Below, one piece after another: positions 6,298 through 56,782 of a stretch of 64,000 bases of DNA. The DNA comes from Candidatus Harrisonbacteria bacterium (GTDB lineage: Bacteria; Patescibacteriota; Minisyncoccia; UBA6257; UBA11618), in the NCBI GenBank assembly GCA_016867415.1, contig VGJO01000002.1, positions 118,472 to 182,471 of the forward strand. Reading direction: 5' to 3'. The notes below the pieces were generated by a model, which ran no database searches, had not been told where the DNA came from, and saw only the letters and a list, made by a program, of their open reading frames with translations. The number at the start of each line of letters is the position of its first letter. Position 1 is the first letter of the stretch. The position numbers and the translations under genes were made by a program.

Positions 6298-6552
6298 TCA
6301 AAATTCATATGAGAAAGATAAGAAAAAAGATTTCTCATAAATTTTAGCTAAAAGTACTTCCCTATCACGATTGATTGTAATCACTTTTCTGAATCTGAGA
6401 AGAGCTTCCCCTCTATAATTTGGCAAAAAATTTGAAATTTTATTAAGAGATGGATGAGGGGGTGTCTCTTCATAATCTAAAAAATATTCCTCTGTTTCAG
6501 GAATATCAATATTTTTTTCCGACGCATATCCGTGCAATTTGTATAGATCCAT
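6298..6552 (-). CDS. hypothetical small protein (weak)
   Basis: 84-aa ORF only; no recognisable motif; overlaps another predicted ORF. Confidence 0.2.
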   Translation of the reverse strand: MDLYKLHGYASEKNIDIPETEEYFLDYEETPPHPSLNKISNFLPNYRGEALLRFRKVITINRDREVLLAKIYEKSFFLSFSYEF

Positions 6553-6611
6553 AAAATAATCCCGAACATCAAGAAAATCTCCACACCACTAAAAAAGCTC
6601 TCTTCCCTATC

Positions 6612-6742
6612 GTGACTATTCTGAAGAAAAGATCTTAATTTTTTATGGTATTTTTTATCTCCTTTTTCCCCAAAAAAATCCTTTTCAAGGACAGAAGAAT
6701 CCATTCTCAGGATTGGATTCTGAGTCACAGAAAGAGAGAAGA
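6612..6742 (+). repeat. Family B repeat fragment (B5)
   Basis: cgtgactattctgaagaaaag...tttttatggtatttttt...ttttcaaggacagaagaa...gagtcacagaaag matches family B 3' module. Confidence 0.55.
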
Positions 6743-6775
6743 AATTTTTTAAAAATAACAGTACAAATCCGTGCT

Positions 6776-7456
6776 TTATTTCTCCAAAGCCTTCTTCGCC
6801 GCCTCCGCCTCTGCCTCCTGCTTTGAAAAGCCTTTTCCCTTCGCTAGCAATACTCCATCCACATACACTCCCACTTCAAAAGTCTTTTCGTGTTCCGGTC
6901 CCTCCTCATGAGTTACCCGGTACTCTGGAGTAATTTTCTTCTCTTTCTGAATCTCTTCCTGAAGGAGGCTCTTAGGATCACGATAATTTCCACTCTTTAA
7001 GACCTCGTGCAAATACTTCATCAAAAATCGATCAAGATACCCCTTCACCGCGCCGTAGCCCCCATCCAGATATATCGCCCCAATCAAAGCCTCCGCCGCA
7101 TTCGCAAGGATCACTTCCATCGCCCGCTTTGTGTCCCGCGCCTCTCCTCGCGATACGAGCATCTTCTTCTCAAGACCACTTTCCTTCGCTACCTCCGCCA
7201 TCATTAAGTAATTGACAAGTGATGCTCGGAGCGGCGTAAGCGCCCCCTCACTTTTCTCTGGAAACCGATGATAAAGCTCCTCAGTCACAATAAGCTCGAG
7301 CACTGCATCTCCTAAAAATTCCAGTCGCTCATTATGAGGAAATGGCCATCTCGGATTTTCATTCAAATATGAGCGATGGGTAATCGCCTCCTTTAAATAC
7401 TCTGGCTTAGAAAATCGATATCCTATAGTTCTCTCTATTTCTCCAATATCCACCAT
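6776..7456 (-). CDS. rnc: Ribonuclease III
   Basis: 226 aa; RNase III signature ERLEFLGDAVLELIVTEELY; C-terminal dsRBD with GxGxSKxxAxxxAA-like KGKGFSKQEAEAEAAKKALE. Confidence 0.9.
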   Translation of the reverse strand: MVDIGEIERTIGYRFSKPEYLKEAITHRSYLNENPRWPFPHNERLEFLGDAVLELIVTEELYHRFPEKSEGALTPLRASLVNYLMMAEVAKESGLEKKMLVSRGEARDTKRAMEVILANAAEALIGAIYLDGGYGAVKGYLDRFLMKYLHEVLKSGNYRDPKSLLQEEIQKEKKITPEYRVTHEEGPEHEKTFEVGVYVDGVLLAKGKGFSKQEAEAEAAKKALEK

Positions 7457-7458
7457 AC

Positions 7459-7965
7459 CTATTCTTTATCCTGAGCTTGTCGAAGGACTTTAACCTCTTC
7501 CTTTTCTTTTTCCTCAGGTTTTTGAGACACTACTTCTTTTGGCAAAGTCGCCTCAATTTCCTTATACACCGTTCCTAAAACACCGTTAATAAATTTACCC
7601 GAATTCGGCCCCCCGTAATTTTTGGCAATCTCAATTGCTTCATTAATCGCCACTTTCGGCGGCACTTCATCCTTATTCGCATGCAAGAGCTCAAAAAGAC
7701 CTATCCGCAAGGCATTTCGATCAATGACCGCCACCTGCGGCAATGGCCACTCCGGCGCCGCCTTCTCAATAATGGCGTCGAGCTCATTAATGTGTTCAAT
7801 CACTCCCGAGACGAGTTTGAAAACAAATTCTGGCTCGTCAAAACCTGGAGCAAACTCATTAATATTGCGCTCCACTATCTTTGCTAAATCTTCCTTCTTA
7901 TCAAGAAAGTCCCATTCATAGAGGGACTGCAGGGCTATTGACCGCCCAAGCTGTCTAGTCGCCAT
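7459..7965 (-). CDS. nusB: Transcription antitermination factor NusB
   Basis: 168 aa; NusB-like helical protein with conserved [15 protein letters not shown]... region. Confidence 0.75.
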
Positions 7966-8010
7966 AATATAAAGTTAATTCTACCACACCACATAAGAAA
8001 GAAGAGTGAA

Positions 8011-8313
8011 TTACTCACTCTTCTTTTCCTCTTCCTTAGATTCGGCTACGACCTCTCCTTCCTCTTTCACTTCTTCTTGCTTTGCCTCTAGAACCACTTC
8101 TTCTTTTTTCTTTCTCGTAGTTTTCTTAGGCTTTATCTCCGCCGTTTTTGCTTCAAGCGGTCCATAATTACCACACTGCAAACATGCTCGATGAGGCAAG
8201 ACCGGACCGCCACACTTCACGCAGACTGCAAGCTTTATTTTCTTCAAAGCATGATGTGACCGTCTTCGGCCCACCTTGCCTTTACTGTGATGTTTAACTG
8301 GTACACCTCCCAT
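8011..8313 (-). CDS. rpmF: 50S ribosomal protein L32 (with Lys/Glu-rich C-terminal extension)
   Basis: N-terminus GGVPVKHHSKGKVGRRRSHHALK and Cys4 cluster CVKCG...CLQCG typical of L32. Confidence 0.75.
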   Translation of the reverse strand: MGGVPVKHHSKGKVGRRRSHHALKKIKLAVCVKCGGPVLPHRACLQCGNYGPLEAKTAEIKPKKTTRKKKEEVVLEAKQEEVKEEGEVVAESKEEEKKSE

Positions 8314-8345
8314 AGTCCGCTAATGATAACAAATAATAGAGAAAA

Positions 8346-8387
8346 GTCAATAAAATCAATTTTAGCTAAAAATTAGATTTTATTGAC
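8346..8387 (-). terminator. 12-bp perfect inverted repeat between rnhB and rpmF (terminator/regulatory hairpin)
   Basis: gtcaataaaatc ... gattttattgac separated by 18 nt. Confidence 0.3.
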
Positions 8388-8439
8388 CCCCGTGAAAGTA
8401 CTCCTCTTTACAGAGTAAACTATATAAATATCTTAAGTA

Positions 8440-9000
8440 TTAATGCAAAAAGCTCTTCCTATGCCACTCAGTCACTCCTAGTTTTTGTATCGCCTCCCTA
8501 TGCTCCCTCGTCCCATACCCTGCATTTCTTTCCCACCCATATCCTTGATATTTTTCCGCAAGCCCTGCCATCACTCTATCTCGCATTACTTTCGCGTATA
8601 CAGCCGCGAGCATCACTGCCGACACTTTCTGATCCGCTTTTATCATTGTCTCTTGATCAACATTTTTATCCACCAAAAAAAGCCCGCCATCAAGAACCAC
8701 TCTATCCCCTTTCTCTCTTACCGCCATATACGCAAAATTCGCACCAAGTCGCGCCGCCTGCAAAATATTTATCTTCTCAATTATTGCAACCGACAGACTC
8801 ACCGCTTCCGCCCTCAAAATTCCCGCCTGCTTCTGCTCCTCAATCCACTCCCACCACCACTCCCGTTCCGGCCTCGGCATCAGCTTCGAATCCCGTATTT
8901 CCTTGGGCAAACAAAGGGACACTGGCACCCGTACCGCCCCTACAGTCACCGGCCCCGCGAGGCACCCCCGCCCCACCTCATCTATTCCAATAAGATGCAT
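8440..9000 (-). CDS. rnhB: Ribonuclease HII
   Basis: 186 aa; N-terminal IGIDEVGRGCLAGPVTVGAV matches RNase HII catalytic motif (DEVGRG). Confidence 0.88.
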   Translation of the reverse strand: MHLIGIDEVGRGCLAGPVTVGAVRVPVSLCLPKEIRDSKLMPRPEREWWWEWIEEQKQAGILRAEAVSLSVAIIEKINILQAARLGANFAYMAVREKGDRVVLDGGLFLVDKNVDQETMIKADQKVSAVMLAAVYAKVMRDRVMAGLAEKYQGYGWERNAGYGTREHREAIQKLGVTEWHRKSFLH

Positions 9001-9010
9001 CTATAGAAAA

Positions 9011-10171
9011 CTATTCAACTTCAGATAAATAATCCTTGCAAGCCACTTTAATATTATCAGGTAGCTTCTGGCTAATATTTTTATATAAAATCACAAAATT
9101 CTTACATTCTTCTCGACTAAAAGTAGTAACCAATTGATTTTTTTTATCTTTACTCTTAATCCTTTGAGCAAAAACCTTACAGGCTTGTTTCGGATCTTTA
9201 CCCAAGCTATTAAGATAAGAAAAAAAATCATTCCTCATCGCAACATCATAATTAAAGTTAGCCTTTCCAGTCGGATTAAGAACTTCTTTAATTTCAGGAA
9301 TTTTATCAATAATGCCGGTTTGTAAAGTTTTACCCCGAATCACAAGAGAAATAAATTTATAGTAAATATCATATCCATATTTATCAATAAAATAACCGGC
9401 TATTAAGGCTCCAGAGTTATAAAGGTCATAAACTTCCTGTTTATCTTGAGAATAAGCCTCTATTTTAAAAAAGGAATCAAAAGAACGACATAACCCGGTA
9501 GGACCAAAAATAATCTTCTTCCTTTCAAAAAACTGCAGGCAAGTTCGATTAACAAAAGACTCGCTCTCTTCTAAAGTACAAGTACCTTCATCAAAGCATC
9601 GAGGAAGAGGGGTTTGGAACATTCGACCCAAAAGTACATGAGATATTTCATGAGGAGCAATATTATCAAGTACATATTGAAAATCATTAGCAATAAAAAA
9701 CATGGTGAAAGTATTGTTTAAGAAAGAAGTTTTACCCTTTCCGAAAAAAGTTAAAAATGTATTTCCACTACCAGCCGGCTCAGAAAGATTAGGGAAAAAA
9801 ATGGAATTAAGTTTAATCTTCACATTTATATAAATATCATCTCCTCGAAGACTACAATTTTGCCTATCACAAAAATTTTTATATTGATCCGCCATTGCAT
9901 CCGCTATTTTTTCAAAATCAACAGCTCGTAAAACAATATCAGAAGAGATAGGAGCTAATTGATCACTTTTTTCAAGATCAGCAATAGGCTGATCTCCAGG
10001 CGTTTGAGAAAAAGTAAAATGAATGACAATTTTAGTTCCATCTTTGTCGGCTATTACCGTCCTTACTATTTCTTCAGTTGCAAGAGAAAGAGCATAAGAA
10101 AAGTAAAAAAATAAGAATAAGAATAAAAAAGTATTTTTAAAATAAAAAAGGAAACCCTTAAAGTTAATCAT
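9011..10171 (-). CDS. Secreted hypothetical protein with HExxH zinc-metallopeptidase-like motif
   Basis: 386 aa; hydrophobic N-terminal signal/anchor (FLFLFLFFYFSYALSLA); HEISHVLLG motif; A/T-rich codon usage. Confidence 0.55.
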   Translation of the reverse strand: MINFKGFLFYFKNTFLFLFLFFYFSYALSLATEEIVRTVIADKDGTKIVIHFTFSQTPGDQPIADLEKSDQLAPISSDIVLRAVDFEKIADAMADQYKNFCDRQNCSLRGDDIYINVKIKLNSIFFPNLSEPAGSGNTFLTFFGKGKTSFLNNTFTMFFIANDFQYVLDNIAPHEISHVLLGRMFQTPLPRCFDEGTCTLEESESFVNRTCLQFFERKKIIFGPTGLCRSFDSFFKIEAYSQDKQEVYDLYNSGALIAGYFIDKYGYDIYYKFISLVIRGKTLQTGIIDKIPEIKEVLNPTGKANFNYDVAMRNDFFSYLNSLGKDPKQACKVFAQRIKSKDKKNQLVTTFSREECKNFVILYKNISQKLPDNIKVACKDYLSEVE

Positions 10172-10980
10172 CTTTTTGGAGCATGCATTTCAATACTTTT
10201 AGCTAGATCTTCAATATTTTTCTTATACCAGTCTTCCCCAAAATTATCTAATAAGACTTTCCTTAAAACAGGATCATTTTTCATATCTGTTATCAATCTT
10301 CTGGTAACTCTTGCCGTAGGCACTATTCCGACTTGATAAATGTTTTCTGTATTAGGAAAATAACCATCATTAATGAGAGTGAACACATCTTTAATATAAG
10401 CAGAATTCTTTTCTAAAAAATCCTTAACCAAAGACCTATAGATTGGTAGAGTAGGATCATTGGGATAATTATCTTGAAGATGACGCAATATAGAGATTCC
10501 AAAGATCATAAAAGCCGCATTCCCCTCTGATAAATTACCCAAATCAGTTGTATTAGGATCAGAAGTTTTGATATTTCTATTACTTCTCACCATTTGTAAT
10601 CTCCATACATTACCAAAATAATAAGCGTCCATCTCATCAAAAAGATAAGACAATTGGGTCCAATAATTATTAGAAAAATAGGTTCCTGACTTTCTGCAAT
10701 ATTTAGCCATATCTTTAGGAATATAAGGTCGTTGGGTATAAGCTTGCAAAGTACTCTGAGATTGAGGGATTACATAAAAGCAAACTCTTTTTGGAGCATT
10801 TCCAGAAAATTGAATATCTTTTACTAGACAAGCAAAAGTATTAGGCTTCTTCCCAGCATTTTTAATGCATCCTACAAGCTTCGTTATAGCCATGAATTTT
10901 TTCGTGAACATTATTATCAGAAAAATTTTTAGAAAGAGCTTCTCTGCAAAGAGCATTATCGCCGCAAGAAGCAAGGTCAT
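10168..10980 (-). CDS. hypothetical protein (start uncertain; ATGA overlap with downstream gene)
   Basis: 270-aa ORF; hydrophobic N-terminus; 5' end overlaps the neighbouring ORF in another frame, so an internal Met start is possible. Confidence 0.45.
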   Translation of the reverse strand: MTLLLAAIMLFAEKLFLKIFLIIMFTKKFMAITKLVGCIKNAGKKPNTFACLVKDIQFSGNAPKRVCFYVIPQSQSTLQAYTQRPYIPKDMAKYCRKSGTYFSNNYWTQLSYLFDEMDAYYFGNVWRLQMVRSNRNIKTSDPNTTDLGNLSEGNAAFMIFGISILRHLQDNYPNDPTLPIYRSLVKDFLEKNSAYIKDVFTLINDGYFPNTENIYQVGIVPTARVTRRLITDMKNDPVLRKVLLDNFGEDWYKKNIEDLAKSIEMHAPKR

Positions 10981-11311
10981 TTACATCATTAATACAAAAA
11001 AAATTAATATCAGATAGATCATTATTATGATTAGTAGGCCCCCGACTATTTAAAACATCGAGTTTACTCTGAAACTCATTTACATCTTTGGCTTTTATTA
11101 TATGAATAATCCTTTTACCATCTTTAAATTCAAAAATACAATTCGAACCCAAAAATCCATCATCGCGAAAAGAGATTATTTTTTTTGTTAAATTTTCTCG
11201 CACAAGAGAATTAATAGAAGAATCATCACAGGCTATTAAAGAATATCGAAGATCCTGAGCAAAAGAAAAAAAAGGAGCAAAAAACAATAGAAGAAGAAAG
11301 AAAAATCTCAT
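10862..11311 (-). CDS. Secreted hypothetical protein
   Basis: ORF 10862..11404; internal Met gives signal peptide MRFFFLLLLFFAPFFSFAQD and removes overlap with upstream gene. Confidence 0.45.
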   Translation of the reverse strand: MRFFFLLLLFFAPFFSFAQDLRYSLIACDDSSINSLVRENLTKKIISFRDDGFLGSNCIFEFKDGKRIIHIIKAKDVNEFQSKLDVLNSRGPTNHNNDLSDINFFCINDVNDLASCGDNALCREALSKNFSDNNVHEKIHGYNEACRMH

Positions 11312-11315
11312 GAAG

Positions 11316-12380
11316 TTAGAAGACACTCCCCACCAAATCAGAAGAATTAGATAATGACCTTTTACATTCTTGAACAGCTTGATCAATCTTATTATTAAAA
11401 TCATTTTTAGCAGTAGCTAAAGCAGCTAGTAAATTCTGATTATTTCTTTGGCTAACAAGATCGGACAGATCTTTAAGAGCCTCATAAGCTAATTGAAAAT
11501 TTTCATTTTTCTTAATTAATGCATCTCGGGTACACTGACCAGGAATAGTATTAGACGAAAGCGAATTATTACCTTCCGGCATAATCACCTGCGGCGGCAA
11601 CTGCATCCGAGCTAAACAATCTTTATAATCTTTATACGCTGCCTGTATTGCCGCAATCTTTTTCTCTGATTCATCTGCGTTGATAGCACAATTAAACGAA
11701 GTCAAAGTTTTTAATAACTTCTGAATCTCGGGAATAGTATTCGATACAAAGTTATCTATATTCAGATCTTTTCCATTTACATAATCCTTAACCGAATCGA
11801 CAAAGTCCACCACATCTTTCTTTTCTTTTGGAGATAAACGACAATACTTGTTTTGAGCTAAATTGACATACCGATCATAAGGCAACCCTCGAATAAGAGT
11901 AATAAGATCACTTTTTTTCTTATCTAGTTCCGCCTTATCCGGTATCGCTGGCTCCAAAAGTCCAGAATTTTTTCTCGCTTCAGTCACAAGACCGCTCACA
12001 TACGCCTCCTTATTCTCTCGCTTGGCATACGCTTCCGGGTCCCCAATCCGTCCCATCACATAGGAAGCAATGCTATTTGCATTTCCTTCGTTAATTCCAT
12101 TAAGCTTCGCCGCATCATTCGGATCAAGCGGGGTATCAAAAAGATACTTCGGTGAGGTGACATTAAAAGTAATCGTATGCGGCCCCAGTTTTCTCACGCA
12201 GGTATAGGTCGTGTGATAAACAGCGTCATCTCCCGGCTTGCACTCCGCCGCCTGCACCTCCTCCGCTAACGGAAAAATAGTTTTTTGTTTAGCAACAACA
12301 AGCAAAAGTAAACTTACAAAAATAAGAGAAAGAATCAAATATTTTTTTCTGTTATTTCCAGTATTTTTTTTCTTTTTCAT
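11316..12380 (-). CDS. Secreted hypothetical protein
   Basis: 354 aa; N-terminal KKKK + hydrophobic signal (YLILSLIFVSLLLLVVA); several Cys; no known motif. Confidence 0.55.
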   Translation of the reverse strand: MKKKKNTGNNRKKYLILSLIFVSLLLLVVAKQKTIFPLAEEVQAAECKPGDDAVYHTTYTCVRKLGPHTITFNVTSPKYLFDTPLDPNDAAKLNGINEGNANSIASYVMGRIGDPEAYAKRENKEAYVSGLVTEARKNSGLLEPAIPDKAELDKKKSDLITLIRGLPYDRYVNLAQNKYCRLSPKEKKDVVDFVDSVKDYVNGKDLNIDNFVSNTIPEIQKLLKTLTSFNCAINADESEKKIAAIQAAYKDYKDCLARMQLPPQVIMPEGNNSLSSNTIPGQCTRDALIKKNENFQLAYEALKDLSDLVSQRNNQNLLAALATAKNDFNNKIDQAVQECKRSLSNSSDLVGSVF

Positions 12381-12383
12381 GAA

Positions 12384-13832
12384 TTAATTAAAATTTCTAA
12401 ATTCTGAAACACGCCACGGTTGAAGTTCAGGATGAGGATATTTATCTACATCGTAGTAAAAGACAGGAATAACACTACCGTCTTTCTGAAACTTGCTATA
12501 ATTTTTATAAGAATGAGGCTTAGCTTCCTGACATGGTACGCACCACGAAGTAGACAGTTGGAGTCGAAATGGTTTGCCGCTCGCCTTTAGTTCCTCAAAC
12601 TGATTATTATCTATTTCAAATGACATCCCTTTTCGAGGATCATCAGGCTTTAGAAGATTATTATTCGGCTGCGTCGCCGGCTTCAAACACGCTACTAGTT
12701 TAATCGGACCAGGCAATTTCACCGCCACCGTCACCTTTGATCCGCATTTTTTATCATTTTCCTCTTTAAGCCGCATAAGCTCATATTCAATCTTCGCTTT
12801 TTTGTCCGACACACTGCACGCCGCCGCTTTCCCCTCTAGTTCATTTTTCTGTTTTTCATAGGTATCGCAAAAAAACTGATCATTTTCCTTAAACGGGGTA
12901 AATGAACAATCATCCTTTTGCTTCTTCAAGCACGCCTGCACCGATTTCAAAAGATCCCCTATATTAAATTTACCTGGATCAGGATATAGATATTTCTCTC
13001 CATCTTTCTCCACGTCCGCTGTTAAGATTTTTAACTCCCACACAAGCGAATAATACGACAACAGCGGTCTTTGAGGAGGTTCAGGTAATGCATTTATTTT
13101 ATTAATGAGCTCAAAAACCACATCTCGATTCTTATTAATATCTTGGAATTTTTTATTTACTTCCACAATATTTGAACCATTCTTTGCAATGGCTGGAATT
13201 TGAAAAATTCCTTTTACATAATTTTTTCCGTTATACTTATCTGCATTATATTTTGCAATCGCCTCATTCGCCGCCTTAATCGCCTTATCGCAATCCGGAG
13301 AAACAATACACGGTTTTTCTTTTATTATTTTATAAGGACCAAAAACCTTCCCATTCTTAGCATTAGTAATAGTAATATATGACTCTCCTTTCTCTTCTTT
13401 TATTGTAACTTCATCACCAGGATAAATTAGTATACAACTAGTCTCTTCTCCATTCTCATCAACTGTACATACTTGTTCCACATTCTTATTCTTATCTTTT
13501 TCCTCCTTCTCATTCTTATATTTAACCTTACATCCTCCCTTACATAAATCAGCTAAAGAAGTATCTGAAGGAACAATATCCACTCCCGAATCATCCATCT
13601 TCCCCGAAAGACAAACTTTCAATTTCTGAGTCAGGGTTTGTACTTCTTTTTTTAGATCTTCAAGCTTAAAAAAATCATCATTATTTATGGCCTCTCGCAG
13701 TAATTCTCTCGCCTTCCTAAGTTCTTCAGAGATAGCCCCGCAATCCGGCCGGGCTTCTTGAGCAAAAGCAAATTGAAAAGAAAAAATACTCAAGAAAAAC
13801 CCCATTAAGAAAAACCAAGCGCTATATTTCAT
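12384..13832 (-). CDS. Cys-rich secreted hypothetical protein with C-terminal thioredoxin-like WCxPC motif
   Basis: ORF 12384..13886; signal peptide from internal Met (MKYSAWFFLMGFFLSIFSFQFAFAQE); about 24 Cys; C-terminal FRLQLSTSWCVPCQ resembles the Trx active-site context (F.AEWCGPCK). Confidence 0.55.
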   Translation of the reverse strand: MKYSAWFFLMGFFLSIFSFQFAFAQEARPDCGAISEELRKARELLREAINNDDFFKLEDLKKEVQTLTQKLKVCLSGKMDDSGVDIVPSDTSLADLCKGGCKVKYKNEKEEKDKNKNVEQVCTVDENGEETSCILIYPGDEVTIKEEKGESYITITNAKNGKVFGPYKIIKEKPCIVSPDCDKAIKAANEAIAKYNADKYNGKNYVKGIFQIPAIAKNGSNIVEVNKKFQDINKNRDVVFELINKINALPEPPQRPLLSYYSLVWELKILTADVEKDGEKYLYPDPGKFNIGDLLKSVQACLKKQKDDCSFTPFKENDQFFCDTYEKQKNELEGKAAACSVSDKKAKIEYELMRLKEENDKKCGSKVTVAVKLPGPIKLVACLKPATQPNNNLLKPDDPRKGMSFEIDNNQFEELKASGKPFRLQLSTSWCVPCQEAKPHSYKNYSKFQKDGSVIPVFYYDVDKYPHPELQPWRVSEFRNFN

Positions 13833-13882
13833 AAACTCTTTCTTGAAGAATATCATAATAAAAAAAGAATGTTTTCCCCAGA

Positions 13883-15604
13883 TCACGGCATCTGCACAAC
13901 CGGCATCGTGATTCCGCCTCGACTTCGCTTATACTGCTTCGGCGGAGTATTAGAGACCTCGTTCACCGCCTCCTGTATCTTCGCCCGCTTAAGCGCCTCC
14001 TCAGCTTCTTTTAAAAGCTCCTCCGCCTCTTCTTTTAATTCCTTCTGAAGCTTCGCCCGCTTAAGCGCCTCCTCAGCTTCTTTTAAAAGCTCCTCCGCCT
14101 CTTCTTTTAATTCCTTCTGAAGCTTCGCCCGCTCAAGCGCCTCCTCAGCTTCTTTTAAAAGCTCCTCCGCCTCTTCTTTTAATCTCTTTTCTTTCATTAG
14201 TCCATTCCCCTTCATACAGTAAGATGGTAAAAGCTTTTGCACCTCCACATCACTAATTGCAAGAACTCTCAGATCGAAATCAGAAAGCTTTTTGGCATTA
14301 TCAATAAAATCACAGATATCATTCACCTTATTATCATCAATATCTTTGATATCTTTTATTTTTTGTTCAATTTCTTTCTTCATCTCACGAAGAGTGGCAA
14401 GATTTGCGTTGATTTTATTCCTATTCTTTTCTGTATTAACAACTGCTACATCCACCCATCCTAAACCTTTTCCTTCACTTAGATTTTTAAACAATTCCTC
14501 AAGCCTATTCACTCGCCCCCAAATCACCTGCAACACTGATTGTAGATTATTCTTCATCAAAACTACCTGCCCTCTATCACAAATCGCTTCTCCCTTCGAA
14601 ATCGTCAGAAAGTCGTTAATAAGTTCAGAAAGTCGTAAAAGATCCTTTTCTTCTCCGCTTCGTTTTTTACCTAGAATTAATGGATCTACTATAGTCACCG
14701 ACCCCCCAATAACCGCCACATGATTATTAGCGTTTTCCATTTGCACCAATTCATTCGCAATAGTAATAAGATACCAATTAATATTTCCTAAAAATGAAAT
14801 ATTAGAAAGCACCTCTTGCACACCTTCTAAGATCTGCTTCTTGGCACTACTTACAATAGCAAGAGAGTCTGCTAAAAATACATTTTCAATATTAGTCTTC
14901 ACTTCATTAAGTACCAGACCCTTTATAAGCTCCTCCGCCGCTCCATACTTCTCCGCAAAAAGATCTGCTAACCGCTCGATCAAATTATCGGGTGATTCCG
15001 TATTCCCTTCTACAAACTTCGTCACGTCTGTAAGAAATTCGAAGACCTCGCTTGGGAAAAGTTTGTTATCTTTTGATTTTGCGCACATAAGCGCCACTCG
15101 ACCCTTCACGCATGCTTTATACTCAGAAGACACTCGGCGAAAAAGCGACACCGCCAAATCCGTTACTACTTTCTTAAGATTTTCCAGTTTATCCTCATTA
15201 TTCTTAAAAAACTTTTGAAGCACCGTATCTACTCGAGTTCGCTGATCATTTGAAAGCCGGCTATATGACGAACTAAAAAATCCTTGGGACACCTCTTCCA
15301 TGATCTTCTGTTCAATATTGATAAAAAATTCATCCCCGCCTAACTTCTCCTCCACCGCTTCCCGAATCGCTTTCTCCGCCTCATCAGCCAAAGCCGGACT
15401 GTTTAGCATCTCATCTACAAGTGTTTTCACTTTAACACAACCCACCCTACACCTTTGTTTGATAAGATCAGCAAGAGTAGTAGGCATCTCTTGAGTCTCG
15501 GGTGATGGTTTTTTAGATACTTCTTGAGCCAAGCTAAAATAAGGAAAAGAGAAACAAACCGTACTCACTACCAAAAGAAAAATCATACCCGTTCTCGAAA
15601 ACAT
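13883..15604 (-). CDS. Secreted coiled-coil hypothetical protein with 3 tandem 24-aa repeats
   Basis: 573 aa; signal peptide MFSRTGMIFLLVVSTVCFSFPYFSLAQE; C-terminal repeats LQKELKEEAEELLKEAEEALKRAK x3; stop-start overlap ATGA with upstream gene. Confidence 0.6.
   Translation of the reverse strand: MFSRTGMIFLLVVSTVCFSFPYFSLAQEVSKKPSPETQEMPTTLADLIKQRCRVGCVKVKTLVDEMLNSPALADEAEKAIREAVEEKLGGDEFFINIEQKIMEEVSQGFFSSSYSRLSNDQRTRVDTVLQKFFKNNEDKLENLKKVVTDLAVSLFRRVSSEYKACVKGRVALMCAKSKDNKLFPSEVFEFLTDVTKFVEGNTESPDNLIERLADLFAEKYGAAEELIKGLVLNEVKTNIENVFLADSLAIVSSAKKQILEGVQEVLSNISFLGNINWYLITIANELVQMENANNHVAVIGGSVTIVDPLILGKKRSGEEKDLLRLSELINDFLTISKGEAICDRGQVVLMKNNLQSVLQVIWGRVNRLEELFKNLSEGKGLGWVDVAVVNTEKNRNKINANLATLREMKKEIEQKIKDIKDIDDNKVNDICDFIDNAKKLSDFDLRVLAISDVEVQKLLPSYCMKGNGLMKEKRLKEEAEELLKEAEEALERAKLQKELKEEAEELLKEAEEALKRAKLQKELKEEAEELLKEAEEALKRAKIQEAVNEVSNTPPKQYKRSRGGITMPVVQMP
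13975..14195. repeat. Three tandem ~72-bp repeats (coding, inside 13883..15604)
   Basis: cgcccgcttaagcgcctcctcagcttcttttaaaagctcctccgcctcttcttttaattccttctgaagctt repeated 3 times nearly perfectly. Confidence 0.9.
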
Positions 15605-15706
15605 AGATACCTTTAGTATACCGCATAGAAATAAAGAAAGAGTGTGGAATAAAAAACCCGCCCATAGTTGAGCGGGGTTTCGGAAAAAGATTTGGGTCTT
15701 CTTCCA

Positions 15707-15982
15707 TTACTTCTCGTCGCTTTCGGGAGAAGGGAGTGTCGGCTTCTCGGGCAAATTGAGTCCCGGAAAAAGCTGCAAGCCTTCGCGGCTCACTTTCCCC
15801 ATCGCCTGCATGGCTTGGAAAGCGTCGGTCACATCCGACGCTGTCTCGATCGAGGCCTCCAAGGAGGCCTCGATCGCTTGAGCACTCGCATCAAGCGCCC
15901 GCTCCACCTTCTTGCTCTCGAAATGGATGAGGAGAGATATCATCAGCACAAACGCGCTCGAAATACCAAAAAACATTTTCAT
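15707..15982 (-). CDS. Small secreted/membrane hypothetical protein
   Basis: 91 aa; N-terminal hydrophobic segment MKMFFGISSAFVLMISLLIHF. Confidence 0.35.
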   Translation of the reverse strand: MKMFFGISSAFVLMISLLIHFESKKVERALDASAQAIEASLEASIETASDVTDAFQAMQAMGKVSREGLQLFPGLNLPEKPTLPSPESDEK

Positions 15983-16079
15983 GACCAGACTCCTGAAAAA
16001 GAGATTTGAATATTTTCAAACTGCCACTATTACTCATATATTATAGCATACCAGATATACAAAAGTCAATAGTAACCCC

Positions 16080-16330
16080 GAAGTTGTCAAGTACCCTTAT
16101 AAAATAAGGGTTCTAGAGATTGTCATCCTAGACCACGATCCAGAATCCAGGGCTTGCCGTCTTTGGCGAGCCTCGCTAAAAGCGGGACCCGGAATCTCGT
16201 AGCGGAGCCCTTAGGCCACGTGGGACAGTATTCTTTCCTTTACGTGGCGAAGACCCTGGAACGGGACAAGGCTTGCCGCTTATGGCGGTATTCATAAGTA
16301 ACTAACTATTTTCTCTTAAGATGTTGTGGG
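16080..16330. ncRNA. Candidate structured non-coding region (unassigned)
   Basis: GC-enriched ORF-free stretch with several stems: gccacgt...acgtggc (7 bp), gggcttgccg/ggcgagcc, ccgc-ttatg-gcgg; ggcttgccg occurs twice. Confidence 0.2.
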
Positions 16331-16387
16331 CTTAACGCAGAGTAGTTTTGTACGAATTTTGCAATTTCTTTGCTCGAAATTATTAAA

Positions 16388-16528
16388 ACGTTACACGTCG
16401 TCAAGCGCAGGATTTTTGGATGGAGTTTGCGATTTCTTTCCGAGGAGCCGCCGCAGCGTACTAAGAGCTAGGTACGTGAGGAGGCACCGCAGGAAAAAAT
16501 CGCAAAATCCGCCAAAAAGACCAGCTCG
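16388..16528 (+). repeat. Family A intergenic repeat, copy R3 (abuts dnaE stop codon)
   Basis: gcgcaggatttttggatggagtttgcgatttctttccgag...cagcgtactaagagctaggtacgtgagg...gaaaaaatcgcaaaatccgccaaaaag; last base 16528, dnaE stop 16529-16531. Confidence 0.75.
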
Positions 16529-19500
16529 TTAAATAGATTTTATCTTCTCGAGTATAAATTTTGGTTCTCCGTTCCTATGACTCATTCGGCCTGAGGCGAG
16601 AATGATTCTCCCCTCCGCCCATTCAAAATTCTTATACTCCTCCACCGTCCGAGGAAATACAATCATCTCGAGTGAATCCCGCGCATCATTCAAGTTTACA
16701 AACATCATCGACTGATTATTCTTGGTAAGAATCTTTTTCACACTTGTCATGAGCCCCGCCACCGCAAAACTCGCCTTCTCATTTGTGACTCCCATCGCGT
16801 CCCTGAGTGTCCGCGCCGTAAGTTTCCCCCGATACGGATTAAACGGATGATCCGAGATATAAAGGCCGAGAAGCTCCTTCTCCCACTCGAGCTTCTGCTT
16901 CACACTCGCGGGTGCTACCTCCTTGAGCTTCAACTGCCCCTTAAACTCATCCTTCATTCCAAAAAGTGATCCCGCCGCCTTCTTCTTATACTCCCTGAGT
17001 AGCTGGCTATACCGCAAAATCTCATCCAAATTTTCATTCGCCATATTCCGCTCGACGCCGAGAGAATCAAAAACTCCGCACTTCACGAGCGCCTCAAGCG
17101 ACTTTTTATTAAGATCCCGATGCTCAATCCGGTTCAAAATATCCCGCATTGTCTTATATGCTCCCCCTCGTCCCCGCTCCTCAATCAAAAGCTTTACGAT
17201 ATTTTCCCCCACATTTTTAATCGCGAGGAGTCCAAATCGAATCTCCAGCTTCTCAGGATACGGTGCAAACTCCACCTCGCTCTCATTGATATCCGGCGGC
17301 AACACTTTGATCCGCATCTTCCGACATTCCTCCACAAGAAACGCCACCCGCTCAATATCCCCCGCATCGTTATTTAAGAGTGCCGTCATAAATTCCACGG
17401 GATAATGCGCCCGCAAATATGCTGTCTGATAGCCAATAAAGGCATAGCAGACCGCGTGCGATTTATTAAATCCATATCGCGCAAACGGTGGAAAGAGCTC
17501 CCAGATCTGGACCGCAATATGATCCGGAATTCCGTTTTCAATCATTCCTTTTGTGAGCTTCTCCCGCTGTTCTTCCAAAAGTGCCTTAATCTTTTTCCCG
17601 ATTGCCTTGCGAAGCGTATCCGCCTCAGCGAGCGTATAGCCGGCGAGATCCCGCGCGATTCGCATCATCTGCTCCTGATAGAGACCGATCCCATACGTGT
17701 CCCGCATGATTGGCTCGAGTCCCGGATGCAAATAGGTCGTCTCCTCTCGCCCATGCTTTCTCGCGATAAACGATGGGATAAGATCCATCGGCCCCGGCCG
17801 ATACGCGGCGACCAATGCCACCAGGTCATCGAGCCGTGTGGGTTGGAGCTCCTTCATATACCGCCGCATACCCGACGATTCAAATTGAAAGACTCCCGTC
17901 GTCTCCCCCCGCTGGAGCATCTCATATGTCTCTGGGTCATCAAGCGGCAAAGTATTAATGTCCACATGCCCCTTTCCGTTTTCTTTAATCAGTCGCACTG
18001 TCTCCTCCATGATCGATAAATTTTTCAGTCCTAAGATATCCATCTTAAGAAGTCCTAGAGACTCAATCGCATGCATTTCAAATTGAGTGATAATCGCCGA
18101 TTCATCCTGTGGCGCATACTGAAGCGGTACATAGTGTGAAAGCGGCTTATCCCCGATCACGATGCCGCAGGCATGCACAGACGCGTGCCGCGTGAGTCCC
18201 TCGAGCTTCCGGGACGCATCGATGATCTGCTTTGCGTCCGCCTCTTTTTCATAGAGCTCTTTGAGCTCTGGCACCGTATCCATCGCCGTCTCCAAGTCCT
18301 CATTAAATGGGATTAGTTTTGCCACCCGATCGCAAAAGCCATAGCTCACTCCAAGCGCTCGCCCCGCATCCCGCACCGCCGCCCGCGCTGCCATCGTCCC
18401 AAAAGTGATAATATTAGCCACTTGATCCTTCCCATATTTATCCCGCAGATATTGCACCACTCGATCCCGCCCCTTATCCGCGATATCGGTATCGATATCC
18501 GGCATTTGAATACGATCGGGGTTTAAAAACCGTTCAAAAAGCAAATCATATTTCAATGGATCCACGTTCGTGATCCCAGTGATATACGCCACGATCGATC
18601 CGGCCGCCGAGCCTCTCCCTGGTCCCACGATGATCCCTTGGCTCCGCGCCCAAGCTATAAAATCCTGCACGATAAGAAAATATGCCGGATACCCCATCCG
18701 CTCGATGACCGAGAGCTCATACTCCACCCGATCTAGCACTATTTTATTTGGCTCCGCCCCATACCGTGTTGGCAGTCGCCCTTCTACAATTTTTCTCAAG
18801 TATGTCGCCGCTGTCTCATCTTCAGGCAAGGGAAATTTGGGCAAAATGGTTTTCCCCAGTTCCAACGTTACCTTGCATCGCTCCGCGATTTTTCCCGTGT
18901 TCTCAATCGCCTCCGGCAAATCGACAAAACATTCCCGCATCATGGCCTCACTCCTCATGGAGAAATCATCCATCCGCATGCCGCCTGCCTTCCCTGCAAT
19001 CTTTCTTGGCCCCTGAGCCTCTCCCTCCACATTACCGCTATGCAGCTTATTGCTCATCTGCACCGCGAGCAGTATCTCATGATATGGCGCATCCTCCTTC
19101 TTCTTATAGTGCACGTCCTGTGTGGCAACCAGTGGCGCCCCGATCTCCTTGCTTATCCAAAGCAACCCCGCCCGCACTCGCTCATGATCTTCTGGAAAAC
19201 ATTTCGGGTGATGCGACACTTCAATAAAATAATTATCTTTGCCAAAAATATTCTGATGGCGCTTCGCCGCCTCCAATGCCTCCTCCCGCTTCCCCAATAG
19301 CAAGTTGCGAATCACCTCGCCCGAATAGCATCCCGAGAGCGCAATCAGCCCCTCGTGATACTCTGAAAGGAGCTCCATATCCATCCGCGGCTTATAATAA
19401 AAACCCTCAAGATTCGCCCGAGTAGTCAGCTGAATCAAATTTTTCCACCCTGTCTCGTTTTCGCAAAGAAGCGTGAGGTGATAGTACTTATTATCCACTC

Positions 19501-19780
19501 CATGCACCTTCTCGTGCCGACTCCTTGGCGCCACATAGGCCTCCACTCCCAAGATCGGCTGAATCCCCACCTTTTTGGTCTTCTCATAAAATTCGATAAG
19601 CCCATACATATTCCCGTGGTCCGTAAGCGCCACCGCTCCCATCCTCATCTCCTTTGCCCCAGCAATGATGTCCTCGATCTTCATCAGTCCATCCAAAAGC
19701 GAAAAATGCGAGTGTAGATGCAGATGGACAAAACCCCTCTTCTCCCCTTCCATATGCCTCCATTCTAATACCTCCTTCAA
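16529..19780 (-). CDS. dnaE: DNA polymerase III alpha subunit
   Basis: 1083 aa; N-terminal PHP domain FVHLHLHSHFSLLDG; polymerase core; C-terminal OB region; true start may be an internal Met about 9 codons in. Confidence 0.92.
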   Translation of the reverse strand: MKEVLEWRHMEGEKRGFVHLHLHSHFSLLDGLMKIEDIIAGAKEMRMGAVALTDHGNMYGLIEFYEKTKKVGIQPILGVEAYVAPRSRHEKVHGVDNKYYHLTLLCENETGWKNLIQLTTRANLEGFYYKPRMDMELLSEYHEGLIALSGCYSGEVIRNLLLGKREEALEAAKRHQNIFGKDNYFIEVSHHPKCFPEDHERVRAGLLWISKEIGAPLVATQDVHYKKKEDAPYHEILLAVQMSNKLHSGNVEGEAQGPRKIAGKAGGMRMDDFSMRSEAMMRECFVDLPEAIENTGKIAERCKVTLELGKTILPKFPLPEDETAATYLRKIVEGRLPTRYGAEPNKIVLDRVEYELSVIERMGYPAYFLIVQDFIAWARSQGIIVGPGRGSAAGSIVAYITGITNVDPLKYDLLFERFLNPDRIQMPDIDTDIADKGRDRVVQYLRDKYGKDQVANIITFGTMAARAAVRDAGRALGVSYGFCDRVAKLIPFNEDLETAMDTVPELKELYEKEADAKQIIDASRKLEGLTRHASVHACGIVIGDKPLSHYVPLQYAPQDESAIITQFEMHAIESLGLLKMDILGLKNLSIMEETVRLIKENGKGHVDINTLPLDDPETYEMLQRGETTGVFQFESSGMRRYMKELQPTRLDDLVALVAAYRPGPMDLIPSFIARKHGREETTYLHPGLEPIMRDTYGIGLYQEQMMRIARDLAGYTLAEADTLRKAIGKKIKALLEEQREKLTKGMIENGIPDHIAVQIWELFPPFARYGFNKSHAVCYAFIGYQTAYLRAHYPVEFMTALLNNDAGDIERVAFLVEECRKMRIKVLPPDINESEVEFAPYPEKLEIRFGLLAIKNVGENIVKLLIEERGRGGAYKTMRDILNRIEHRDLNKKSLEALVKCGVFDSLGVERNMANENLDEILRYSQLLREYKKKAAGSLFGMKDEFKGQLKLKEVAPASVKQKLEWEKELLGLYISDHPFNPYRGKLTARTLRDAMGVTNEKASFAVAGLMTSVKKILTKNNQSMMFVNLNDARDSLEMIVFPRTVEEYKNFEWAEGRIILASGRMSHRNGEPKFILEKIKSI

Positions 19781-47505: not shown

Positions 47506-48939
47506 TTAAGGGAATTGATGCAAAAAATCAAAAAAGTGGTAGATGGCAGGTGGCAGTATCGGTAGTAATGATTGCAGTAATAGTAGTGATAATGCAGGTG
47601 CAGGTGCAGGTGCAGGTGTAGGTGCAGGTGTAGGTGCAGGTGTAGGTGTAGATGTAGGTTCAGGTGTAGGTGTAGGTGTAGGAGTAGGTGTAGGAGTAGG
47701 TGTAGGAGTAGGAGGAGGAGCAGGAGGAGGAGCAGGAGGAGGAGGAGGAGGTGGAGGAGGAGGAGGAGGAGGTGGAGGTGGAGGTGGAGGTGGAGGTGGA
47801 GGAGGAGGTGGAGGTGGAGGTGGAGGTGGAGGAGGAGTAAGTTCAGTTGCATGAGGAGGTTCAGGTGTAGGTTCAGGTGTAGGTTCAAGTGTAGGTGAGC
47901 CGTCTACTAGGGCGCCGCCATCGCCGCCATTGCCGCGATTGCCGCCATCGCCACCATTGCCACCATTGCCACCATTGCCGCCATTGCCGCCATTGCCGCG
48001 ATTGCCGCCATTGCCGCCATCGCCGCCATTGCCGCCATCGCCTGTATTGCCTGTATTGTCTGTATTGCCTGTGAATCCAGTCAACTTTGAAATTTCATTT
48101 AATATTAGTTTACGTTCATCAGAATCTCTCAAAAATTTTTCGGCTATTTTTTCAATTTTCGCTTCTATTTCGGCTTGGCTTTTTGGTGACCAAGATTCAA
48201 TAGCGGCAGGCAAAGAACTGGCTTCAATAAAACTATCATTGATGAATACTGGCACTTCTTCTCTCCTTGATTCTCCTCCATACGCTTGGGCTGTTAACCT
48301 CCCCATTTCATTGTTCTTATTCGAAGCAAATCCCCGTTTCCATCCCAATTTTTGCTCTATCCATCTGACCACCCACTGCTCAAAGGATTCGGCCGCTGCC
48401 GCATTCGCCTGCAAGCTTGCGAATCGGACACCCACCGAATAACTCCCGAAAGTATAGTGGTAAAAAAACAATGTATCTTCATTTGTATCCGGATTAATTC
48501 CATTTTTCCCGTTTTGTGGATCAATCGGCAAAGCATCAATCTGAATCCCAGGAATCTGCCGAAAATCAATTGGTAGCCAACCACTTCCATCAATCTGCGT
48601 AAGTCGCTCTTTTGGCACACATCGGTAATCATACCCCTCCGCTAATTGAAGCAAACCCCGATCTCTCCAATAGCCACAAGTCGGATCATCATCTGGTAAG
48701 GAAACATAGACAAGCCGCCGCTCCCCTAAAAGAGCATATTGAGCCTGCTCATCTATAAAGCTAATAAGTTGAGAAAGAAACTTAAGATCTTTATTGCGTT
48801 GCCGATCTACCTGAAAACGAAAAAATTCCAAAGGATTAATCGTCACCGAAAATACCCCTGCAATAAGAAAAAAAGACACCCCGATAAGCAAGGCTTTCAC
48901 CGGAAAAGATAAACGCTCGAGCCTCTGCATGAGCTCCAT
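47506..48939 (-). CDS. Membrane-anchored/secreted hypothetical protein with GN-rich, poly-Pro (34 P) and (TP)n tail
   Basis: 477 aa; N-terminal TM ALLIGVSFFLIAGVF; ~300-aa globular region; then GNGGNGGDGG repeats, P34 run, TPTPTP repeats, hydrophobic C-terminus. Confidence 0.65.
   Translation of the reverse strand: MELMQRLERLSFPVKALLIGVSFFLIAGVFSVTINPLEFFRFQVDRQRNKDLKFLSQLISFIDEQAQYALLGERRLVYVSLPDDDPTCGYWRDRGLLQLAEGYDYRCVPKERLTQIDGSGWLPIDFRQIPGIQIDALPIDPQNGKNGINPDTNEDTLFFYHYTFGSYSVGVRFASLQANAAAAESFEQWVVRWIEQKLGWKRGFASNKNNEMGRLTAQAYGGESRREEVPVFINDSFIEASSLPAAIESWSPKSQAEIEAKIEKIAEKFLRDSDERKLILNEISKLTGFTGNTDNTGNTGDGGNGGDGGNGGNRGNGGNGGNGGNGGNGGDGGNRGNGGDGGALVDGSPTLEPTPEPTPEPPHATELTPPPPPPPPPPPPPPPPPPPPPPPPPPPPPPPPPPAPPPAPPPTPTPTPTPTPTPTPTPEPTSTPTPAPTPAPTPAPAPAPALSLLLLQSLLPILPPAIYHFFDFLHQFP
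47594..48062. repeat. Coding simple-sequence repeats (hexamer ggtgca/ggtgta, trimer gga/ggt, nonamer gccgccatt)
   Basis: Visible runs caggtgcaggtgcaggtgtagg..., ggaggaggaggtggaggtgg..., gccattgccgccattgccgcgattgcc... Confidence 0.9.
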
Positions 48940-56780: not shown

Positions 56781-56782
56781 AG

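What the first reader, a model, noticed from the sequence alone, without database searches (positions are those of the whole stretch)
12384..13832. Cys-rich secreted protein ending in a truncated thioredoxin-like CxxC motif
The ~480-aa protein has about 24 cysteines, many in CxxC- or CxxxC-like spacing (CKGGC, CIVSPDC, CLKKQKDDC). Its last 60 residues read FRLQLSTSWCVPCQEAKPH..., which resembles the thioredoxin active-site context (x-W-C-G/V-P-C), yet the protein stops before a full Trx fold can be completed. This suggests a disulfide-rich extracellular protein with a redox-active or metal-binding terminal motif.
Basis: seen in the sequence. Interest (0 to 1): 0.5.

Follow-up and report, generated by a model that had tools for sequence, protein, structure and literature searches.

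The report
Secreted cysteine-rich protein with half a thioredoxin
This is an exported, cysteine-rich orphan protein of an uncultured Harrisonbacteria-like (CPR) bacterium whose C-terminus is a real but truncated thioredoxin-type CxxC domain, and the gene lies in a small cassette that exists as two very different versions in otherwise identical strains.

Summary
The ORF is real: 12384..13832 on the minus strand, 482 aa, with a Sec signal peptide. It has 16 cysteines, not about 24, but that is 3.3% against 0.7% for the window. It has only one CxxC. The C-terminal 80 aa are thioredoxin/TlpA-like (WCVPC). Pfam scores it below threshold, but an exhaustive search of 1.84 billion proteins gives E=1e-8 to TlpA-like proteins, and NCBI names the identical protein "thioredoxin family protein".

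In alignment the protein ends 3 residues after the cis-proline position, where it has Arg. The beta-beta-alpha half of the fold is missing, and no remnant of it exists in any frame. The stop codon is the same in assemblies from at least five samples.

The only homologue (P0008/P0017, 316/324 aa) sits at the same locus in a strain whose flanks are 99.9% identical. It shares a 28-aa motif and the CxxC and has a complete small Trx domain.

The target and its upstream gene therefore form a strain-variable replacement cassette. The cassette lies inside a low-GC island of six genes, five of which encode signal-peptide proteins.

Most likely this is a disulfide-stabilised, variable secreted or surface protein whose Trx module is no longer a canonical oxidoreductase. 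Structure prediction failed, and function is untested.

The parts
12384..13832 (-). Target CDS, 482 aa plus TAA stop (alternative start ATG 13856 gives 490 aa)
13761..13832 (-). Sec-type signal peptide, aa 1-24, predicted cleavage AFA|QE
   Evidence: Read from the sequence. The same AxA|Q(E/D) pattern occurs in neighbouring island proteins.
12744..13760 (-). Orphan N-terminal region, aa 25-363, with 13 of the 16 cysteines. The low-confidence model suggests a helical hairpin (aa 31-76), a beta-rich stretch (aa 100-170), then helices.
   Evidence: No Pfam, NCBIfam, PHROGs or PADLOC hit. No homologue among 1.84e9 proteins except P0008. AF2 mean pLDDT 44.5.
12660..12743 (-). Conserved 28-aa motif GSKVTVAVKLPGPIKLVACLKPATQPNN (aa 364-391), probably a beta-hairpin leading into the Trx module. 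It is the only stretch of the gene still alignable at DNA level with the other allele.
   Evidence: 75% aa identity to P0008. 79.8% nt identity to L085. 7 synonymous and 7 nonsynonymous codon changes.
12387..12626 (-). Truncated thioredoxin/TlpA-like module, aa 403-482 (beta-alpha-beta-CxxC-alpha-beta-alpha, then it stops)
12531..12542 (-). CxxC motif C431-V-P-C434, within WCVPC
12407..12444 (-). Cluster of 5 nonsynonymous differences (D461E, H465Y, Q469R, W471S, S474P) against contig L087, which otherwise differs at 1 of 21,473 nt
12384..12386 (-). TAA stop. The next ORF's ATG (12380) follows after 3 nt, in the same frame.
   Evidence: The stop is identical in L001 and L087-L090.
12278..12380 (-). 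Divergent 5' end (signal-peptide codons) of the downstream gene. This is the downstream edge of the strain-variable cassette: identity to allele-B contig L085 rises to 99.9% from 12278 towards lower coordinates.
13883..15604 (-). Upstream secreted coiled-coil protein (573 aa), also replaced in allele B (25% aa identity). It contains a 72-nt tandem repeat whose copy number varies between assemblies.
9011..15604 (-). Low-GC six-gene island (GC 0.30-0.41 against 0.50-0.54 in the flanks). Five of the six products have signal peptides. The island lies between rnhB and dnaE, which are adjacent in related genomes.

Best explanation
The gene encodes a Sec-exported, disulfide-stabilised protein of a Harrisonbacteria-like (Paceibacteria, CPR) bacterium. 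Its layout is: signal peptide, an orphan Cys-containing N-terminal region, a conserved 28-aa hairpin motif, and a thioredoxin/TlpA-type CxxC module.

In this allele the module stops at the cis-Pro position and lacks the beta-beta-alpha half of the fold. It is therefore most likely no longer an autonomous thiol-disulfide oxidoreductase. The WCVPC probably persists as a local disulfide or a residual site.

The gene and its upstream neighbour form a cassette of about 3.6 kb that occurs as two deeply divergent alleles in otherwise 99.9%-identical genomes from the same samples. The other allele keeps a complete small Trx domain. That pattern is typical of surface or secreted proteins under diversifying or frequency-dependent selection, from a host or a phage.

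Shown: the ORF, the signal-peptide features, the cysteine enrichment, the Trx homology, the truncation, the allelic replacement and the island context. Inferred: export, disulfide formation, loss of catalytic competence and the selective driver.
For: Trx homology. NCBI names the identical protein MBM3281469.1 'thioredoxin family protein [Candidatus Harrisonbacteria bacterium]'.

Truncation: the alignment ends 3 aa past the cis-Pro column, which holds R479. The Pfam match stops at profile position 61 of 103 with only 16 residues left. No C-terminal Trx remnant scores better than E=0.78 in six-frame translations of the whole window.

The stop codon is not an error. The same 3' end is found in ENA ERZ27247963, JGI 3300020197 and 3300020214, and Logan SRR7990525 and SRR7053297.

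Allelic cassette:
- L085 is 99.92% identical to window 3830-12278. Beyond that it is unalignable except for the 84-nt motif.
- L085 has the same gene order.
- Its upstream gene is only 25% identical in protein.
- Both alleles occur in JGI sample 3300020214, and contigs break at the boundary.

Allele B has a complete domain whose C-terminal half aligns to Anabaena thioredoxin 1thx.

Cysteines and island: 16 Cys, an even number, P=2e-7; island GC3 is 0.21-0.40 against 0.54-0.69 in the flanks; five of six island products have signal peptides. The island is absent between rnhB and dnaE in more than 30 related Paceibacteria loci.
Against: There is no structural evidence. AF2 without a useful alignment gave pLDDT 44.5 for the full length and 32.5 for the C-terminal 144 aa, so the fold state of the tail is unknown.

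The CxxC and its Trx-like context are retained intact in the truncated allele across all sampled strains, which could mean the site is still used.

Only two alleles exist in about 15 billion proteins, so conservation arguments rest on a single comparison. Export, disulfide bonding and expression are inferred from sequence only. The upstream edge of the cassette is inferred from contig ends (about 15.9 kb), not observed.
Confidence: 0.55

Rival explanations
1. The half-thioredoxin is still a working redox module. The missing beta-beta-alpha half would be supplied in cis by the conserved hairpin or the beta-rich N-terminal region, or in trans by a partner protein. This would resemble the known non-covalent complementation of E. 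coli thioredoxin fragments 1-73 and 74-108. The CxxC would then oxidise, reduce or isomerise cysteines of the protein itself, of the other Cys-rich island proteins, or of host surface proteins.
For: WCVPC is the active-site motif I recall for TlpA/CcmG-type extracytoplasmic reductases (from memory, not checked here), and it is intact. The CxxC is the only feature besides the 28-aa motif kept between alleles that are otherwise under 25% identical. The island is strongly cysteine-enriched: 44 Cys in 2083 aa, P=1e-13. The truncated allele is an intact 482-aa ORF in every sample.
Against: No sequence resembling the Trx C-terminal half occurs in any frame of the 64-kb window. The cis-Pro, needed for substrate binding in canonical family members, aligns with Arg. 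The tail carries 5 amino-acid changes in 22 codons between near-identical strains, which is unexpected for a tightly packed catalytic domain.
Confidence: 0.2
2. The terminal CxxC, with nearby C382 and H440, is a metal-binding site, as in Sco-type copper proteins built on a Trx fold, rather than a redox site.
For: CxxC with a downstream His (WCVPCQEAKPH) and a conserved Cys in the preceding motif. Precedent recalled from general knowledge: Sco proteins bind Cu with a CxxxC motif plus a His on a Trx-like fold.
Against: No similarity to Sco or any metal-binding family in Pfam, NCBIfam or the PDB. H440 is not conserved in allele B (CSPCRDMAPL). The spacing is CxxC, not Sco's CxxxC.
Confidence: 0.07
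3. The truncation is an assembly or sequencing artefact, or the gene is a decaying pseudogene with no function.
For: The domain is incomplete. The stop is followed 3 nt later, in frame, by the next ORF. The SNP cluster lies at the 3' end.
Against: The stop and tail are identical in assemblies made by different pipelines from at least five samples. Read-through would run into a signal peptide, not Trx sequence. The other 460 codons are intact and differ at no more than one residue among strains.
Confidence: 0.08
4. The C-terminal tail is the variable region of a diversity-generating retroelement (DGR). DGRs are common in CPR bacteria, and this would explain the 5 clustered nonsynonymous differences.
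For: 5 of the 6 differences in 21.5 kb fall within 38 nt at the 3' end of the gene, and all change the amino acid. DGR variable regions sit at the 3' ends of target genes (general knowledge).
Against: No template-repeat copy of the 3' end exists anywhere in the window; the longest other match is 13 nt, and the repeat finder lists none. The ORFs scanned against Pfam gave no reverse-transcriptase hit, although not every ORF in the window was scanned. Only 5 sites vary, and Asn AAT codons in the tail are unchanged. A short recombination tract from a third allele explains the pattern more simply.
Confidence: 0.03

Closest known systems
Extracytoplasmic thioredoxin-like thiol-disulfide oxidoreductases (TlpA / ResA / CcmG-DsbE / StoA group)
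   Same: Exported. WCxPC active-site context; WCVPC is the TlpA/CcmG motif as I recall it (not checked here). A beta-hairpin-like lead-in precedes the CxxC strand. The best library hits are TlpA-like multi-domain proteins and the ResA/TlpA NCBIfam models.
   Different: Scores are far below family cut-offs (about 17 bits against 170-230). The central insertion of the family is absent. The cis-Pro loop and beta4-beta5-alpha4 are absent. The module is fused behind a roughly 380-aa orphan Cys-rich region instead of a membrane anchor.
Classical thioredoxin / PDI a-type domains (Pfam PF00085)
   Same: The beta-alpha-beta-CxxC-alpha-beta-alpha order and the spacing up to the 'DxD...P...Y.V' segment match. 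The profile built with allele B hits PDI A4 (E=7e-7) and Anabaena Trx (E=8e-6).
   Different: The target alone is below the Pfam gathering score (16.6 against 23.5 bits) and covers only profile positions 8-61 of 103. It ends where E. coli Trx residue about 79 would be.
P0008/P0017: the allele-B protein at the same locus (JGI 3300020214 Ga0194132_10013036; GEM; Logan SRR7990526)
   Same: Same genomic position and same neighbours. It has a signal peptide, a mature N-terminus starting xDC followed by a helix, the 28-aa motif (75% identical) and a CxxC module.
   Different: 316/324 aa against 482/490 aa, and 10 Cys against 16. It lacks roughly 170 aa of the target's N-terminal/middle region and is otherwise unalignable. 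Its Trx module is short (no beta1-alpha1 lead-in) but complete, with cis-Pro (IPAF), a beta hairpin and a terminal helix.
Replacement-type flexible genomic islands / divergent allelic cassettes for surface proteins (for example O-antigen or pilin loci; concept from marine and freshwater population genomics)
   Same: The flanks are essentially identical (99.9%). The cassette products are homologous but deeply divergent (at most 25% aa identity for the upstream gene). The alleles coexist in one sample. The products are secreted. GC content is low.
   Different: The cassette is very small (about 3.6 kb, two genes). Only two alleles, plus one tail variant, have been seen. The host is a CPR bacterium and the function is unknown.

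Membership tests
Thioredoxin (Pfam PF00085) / thioredoxin-fold superfamily | Significant match to the family profile at the curated threshold | tested here: not met
   16.6 bits against a gathering score of 23.5, E=0.0078. Superfamily-level homology is nevertheless supported by the exhaustive phmmer search (E=1.2e-8) and by the profile search against the PDB (E=7e-7).
Thioredoxin (Pfam PF00085) / thioredoxin-fold superfamily | CxxC at the N-terminus of the first long helix, after a hydrophobic beta strand (WCxPC context) | tested here: met
   FRLQLSTSWCVPCQEAKP aligns column for column with VDFWAEWCGPCKMIAP of E. coli Trx (written from memory) and with six other Trx domains.
Thioredoxin (Pfam PF00085) / thioredoxin-fold superfamily | Conserved cis-proline loop opposite the active site | tested here: not met
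   The cis-Pro column holds R479. All seven reference domains have Pro there.
Thioredoxin (Pfam PF00085) / thioredoxin-fold superfamily | C-terminal beta-beta-alpha unit that completes the four-stranded core sheet | tested here: not met
   The protein ends 3 residues after the cis-Pro column. No remnant is found in any frame of the window.
Thioredoxin (Pfam PF00085) / thioredoxin-fold superfamily | Three-dimensional Trx fold | tested here: inconclusive
   AF2 models have pLDDT 44.5 and 32.5 and are unusable, so no fold search was attempted.
Thioredoxin (Pfam PF00085) / thioredoxin-fold superfamily | Thiol-disulfide exchange activity | not testable with these tools
   Needs insulin-reduction, oxidase or isomerase assays on purified protein.
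TlpA/ResA/CcmG extracytoplasmic reductases | Match to NCBIfam ResA, TlpA or StoA models at their cut-offs | tested here: not met
   17.1, 15.8 and 13.3 bits against cut-offs of 170, 230 and 210. Only the N-terminal half of each model is matched.
TlpA/ResA/CcmG extracytoplasmic reductases | Extracytoplasmic location (signal peptide or membrane anchor) | tested here: met
   The N-terminal signal peptide has an AFA|QE site, read from the sequence. No predictor was run.
TlpA/ResA/CcmG extracytoplasmic reductases | Central alpha/beta insertion between beta3 and alpha3 of the Trx core | tested here: not met
   The spacing from the CxxC to the 'Y.V..P' segment equals that of classical Trx, with no insertion.
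Diversity-generating retroelement target | Template repeat and reverse transcriptase near the variable region | tested here: not met
   No repeat of 12384-12560 longer than 13 nt in the 64-kb window. No RT among the scanned ORFs; not every ORF in the window was scanned.

The most novel reading that the evidence does not exclude
The truncated module is a natural 'split thioredoxin'. The exported half-fold, with its intact CxxC, would complete its sheet only on a partner that supplies the missing beta-beta-alpha, either a host-cell surface protein or another island protein. Fold complementation plus a mixed disulfide would then act as a covalent attachment or recognition device for an episymbiotic CPR cell. 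The two-allele cassette would reflect an arms race over that interaction.
Probability: 0.06. Interest if true: 0.75.

Novelty: new variant of a known kind. Interest (0 to 1): 0.35.

Why it matters
CPR/Patescibacteria are thought to live attached to host cells, and almost nothing is known about the secreted proteins that mediate this. Here a tiny low-GC island of exported, cysteine-rich orphan proteins contains a two-gene cassette that is swapped between otherwise identical strains in the same samples. That marks it as a candidate determinant of host or phage interaction.

The thioredoxin-derived module is one of the few recognisable handles on these proteins, besides an unconfirmed HExxH motif in ORF 9011..10171. 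The pair of alleles, one complete and one truncated at about the position where I recall E. coli thioredoxin being split into complementing fragments, offers a natural experiment on whether half a Trx fold can be functional.

The Trx call itself is ordinary. NCBI already names the protein 'thioredoxin family protein'.

Tried and rejected
1. The word-indexed homology search with the full protein found only the protein itself. With the two-sequence C-terminal alignment it returned nothing. With P0008 it found only P0008.
2. The genome-contig scan with the target found no relative. A tblastn of the target and its neighbours against 80 related CPR dnaE loci found nothing.
3. The metagenome scan with alignment-derived patterns found nothing. 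A degenerate DNA pattern for AVKLPGPxxLxAC gave 3 matches, all by chance.
4. AF2 on the full length (pLDDT 44.5) and on the C-terminal 144 aa with P0008 (pLDDT 32.5) was unusable, so no fold search was run.
5. Frameshift or read-through rescue of the Trx domain is rejected. The next ORF is in frame but encodes a signal peptide, and no Trx C-terminal signal exists in six frames.
6. The DGR idea for the SNP cluster is rejected, with no template repeat and no RT hit in the ORFs scanned.
7. The island proteins are not detectably paralogous: all-against-all BLASTP gave nothing below E=0.15.
8. PHROGs and PADLOC gave no meaningful hit for the island proteins.
9. No DsbA, VKOR or CcdA-like protein was found among the window ORFs scanned.
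10. Literature searches for CPR extracellular disulfide or thioredoxin proteins, and for the source samples, gave nothing relevant.

Full report
**The observation**

The region holds one long ORF on the minus strand, 12384..13832 (482 aa from ATG 13832). An in-frame ATG at 13856 gives the 490-aa product that other gene callers report. The N-terminus (MKYSAWFFLMGFFLSIFSFQFAFA|QE) is a typical Sec signal peptide.

The protein has 16 cysteines, all in the mature part. There is one CxxC (C431-V-P-C434) and one Cx3C. The other quoted strings are Cx5C and Cx7C.

Sixteen Cys in 482 aa is 3.3%. The other ORFs in the window average 0.66% (binomial P=2e-7).

**Is the C-terminus thioredoxin-like?**

Yes, at superfamily level.

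- Curated libraries score it below their thresholds. Pfam PF00085 gives 16.6 bits against 23.5, covering profile positions 8-61 of 103. NCBIfam ResA and TlpA give about 16-17 bits. PDB phmmer gives E=3.8e-4 to a designed Trx.
- An exhaustive phmmer search of 1.84 billion representative proteins returned only 12 hits. One is the protein itself. Ten align residues about 380-466 to Trx/TlpA CxxC domains, best E=1.2e-8.
- A profile of the C-terminus together with its only homologue hits PDI A4 at E=7e-7 and Anabaena thioredoxin at E=8e-6.
- NCBI already names the identical protein (MBM3281469.1) 'thioredoxin family protein [Candidatus Harrisonbacteria bacterium]'.

**Is it truncated?**

Yes. In a MAFFT alignment with seven Trx domains, the segment DVDKYPHPELQPWRVSEFRNFN aligns to [20 protein letters not shown] of E. 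coli thioredoxin (that sequence was written from memory). The universally conserved cis-Pro column holds R479, and the protein ends three residues later. About 25-30 residues are missing, corresponding to beta4, beta5 and alpha4.

An HMM built from 24 Trx domains finds the N-terminal half in the target (39.9 bits, positions 8-65 of 109). It finds no C-terminal half anywhere in the six-frame translation of the window; the best other hit has E=0.78.

The stop is TAA. It is followed by TTC and then the ATG of the next ORF in the same frame, but that ORF begins with its own signal peptide.

The same 3' end is present in ENA ERZ27247963, JGI 3300020197 and 3300020214, and Logan SRR7990525 and SRR7053297. 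Some of these assemblies differ from the window at a few SNPs and in a tandem-repeat copy number, so they are not copies of one assembly. The truncation is therefore genuine.

**Organism and context**

DnaE in the window is at most 60% identical to Paceibacteria-class MAGs such as Wolfebacteria and Harrisonbacteria.

The target lies in a block of six co-oriented, tightly packed ORFs (9011..15604).

- None has a meaningful hit in Pfam, NCBIfam, PHROGs or PADLOC.
- Five have signal peptides with AxA|Q/T sites.
- The block is cysteine-enriched: 44 Cys in 2083 aa, P=1e-13.
- Its GC content is 0.30-0.41 (GC3 0.21-0.40), against 0.50-0.54 (GC3 0.54-0.69) for the flanking rnhB, dnaE and a small 91-aa ORF.
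- In more than 30 related genomes rnhB lies next to dnaE. Here the block sits between them and dnaE is inverted.

The block is therefore a lineage-specific island of secreted proteins.

**The only homologue, and what it reveals**

The one non-Trx hit of the exhaustive search, P0008 (316 aa; the same protein with a longer start is P0017, 324 aa), shares a 28-aa motif with the target. The motif is GSxxxVAVKLPGPxxLxACLKPATQPxN, 75% identical, and lies directly upstream of a CxxC module.

P0008's module (CSPC) is short but complete. It has a cis-Pro (IPAF), a beta hairpin and a terminal helix that align to Anabaena thioredoxin.

Its contig (L085, JGI 3300020214) has the same gene order as the window. 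It is 99.92% identical to window 3830-12278. Beyond 12278 the similarity collapses, and only the 84-nt motif is still alignable, at 79.8%.

Within the motif there are seven synonymous and seven nonsynonymous codon changes, which indicates purifying selection on the peptide.

The upstream gene in L085 is only 25% identical in protein to the 573-aa upstream ORF of the window. The signal peptide of the downstream gene is about 50% identical by eye, and from AEEVQAAEC onwards the two downstream proteins are nearly identical (two substitutions near the C-terminus).

Both alleles are found in the same JGI sample. Contigs from several runs end at the 12.17-12.28 kb boundary and near 15.9 kb.

The target and its upstream neighbour therefore make up a replacement cassette of about 3.6 kb, with two deeply divergent alleles in one population.

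A third minor variant (P0014, contig L087) differs from the window at 6 of 21,473 nt. Five of those lie within 38 nt (12407-12444), and all change amino acids in the last 22 codons. No template repeat or reverse transcriptase was found, so a short recombination tract is the simplest explanation.

**Mechanism**

The most likely reading (confidence 0.55) is a Sec-exported, disulfide-stabilised, strain-variable secreted or surface protein. Its ancestral architecture ended in a tethered thioredoxin-type module. In this allele the module has lost the cis-Pro loop and the beta-beta-alpha half, so it is probably not a canonical oxidoreductase, and the WCVPC is probably a local disulfide or a vestige. 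The cysteine spacing suggests eight sequential local pairs, but this is inference only.

The main rival (0.2) is that the half-domain is still redox-active through complementation in cis or in trans, by analogy with the E. coli Trx 1-73/74-108 fragments (general knowledge). The retention of the intact CxxC in both alleles and the cysteine-rich neighbours favour this rival. The lack of any complementing sequence and the fast-changing tail argue against it.

The metal-site (0.07), artefact or pseudogene (0.08) and DGR (0.03) readings are less likely.

**Limits**

Structure prediction failed for lack of homologues, with pLDDT 44.5 and 32.5. No fold search was justified. Export, disulfides, expression and activity are untested. 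Only two alleles exist in the public data, and the upstream cassette boundary is inferred from contig ends.

**Verdict**

Its interpretation is partly supported.

The Trx call is ordinary and already in NCBI. The truncation is real. The more interesting result is the allelic cassette inside an island of secreted orphan proteins in a CPR genome.

I rate it a new variant of a known kind, with interest 0.35.

Noticed in passing
window 606-740, 1153-1279, 16397-16532, 26426-26552, 35759-35886, 50604-50682, 56650-56783, 59479-59709: A dispersed intergenic repeat family of about 120-130 nt, with an internal imperfect inverted repeat (arms 38-49 nt, 71-74% complementary). There are at least 8 copies in 64 kb. 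Rfam finds nothing at gathering threshold. It could be a REP/MITE-like element or a conserved regulatory or terminator structure.
   Followed up: no
window 6670-6699, 23449-23637, 34710-34799, 40366-40554, 45817-45855, 57268-57570, 61356-61389: A second dispersed intergenic repeat family (shared blocks of 30-90 nt, 70-87% identical). Several copies lie near tRNA genes or gene starts.
   Followed up: no
window 13979-14183 (inside ORF 13883..15604, minus strand): A 72-nt tandem repeat, 2.8 copies, 99% identical, encoding KLQKELKEEAEELLKEAEEALKRA. ENA contig L001 has one unit fewer, so copy number varies between strains or assemblies.
   Followed up: partly
window 9011-10171 (minus strand), about aa 174-178: The last island protein (386 aa, signal peptide, 9 Cys) contains an HEISH (HExxH) motif, which suggests a secreted zinc metallopeptidase. 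Pfam, NCBIfam and PHROGs give no hit.
   Followed up: no
window 8440-22495: There is a gene-order change relative to more than 30 related Paceibacteria loci. There, rnhB lies directly upstream of dnaE on the opposite strand, and thrS follows dnaE. Here dnaE is inverted and the six-gene low-GC island plus a 91-aa ORF are inserted between rnhB and dnaE.
   Followed up: partly
window 15657-16069 (minus strand): A near-consensus promoter-like site (TTGACT-18 nt-TATAAT with TG, 16069-16040) and a terminator-like hairpin (15676-15657) bracket a GC-rich (0.54) 91-aa ORF with an N-terminal hydrophobic segment (15707-15982). Contigs of several assemblies end inside it at about 15921-15991, so it may mark the upstream edge of the variable cassette.
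   Followed up: partly
window 47578-48084 (inside ORF 47506..48939, minus strand): Long arrays with 12-nt and 9-nt periods (GGTGCA/GGAGGA-type and GCCGCCATT-type) form an extended low-complexity segment in a 477-aa protein that has an N-terminal hydrophobic segment and no Pfam hit.
   Followed up: no
window 53523-55220 and 55271-56392 (minus strand): Two further sizeable ORFs (565 and 373 aa) have no Pfam family at E<=0.01. They lie among housekeeping genes.
   Followed up: no
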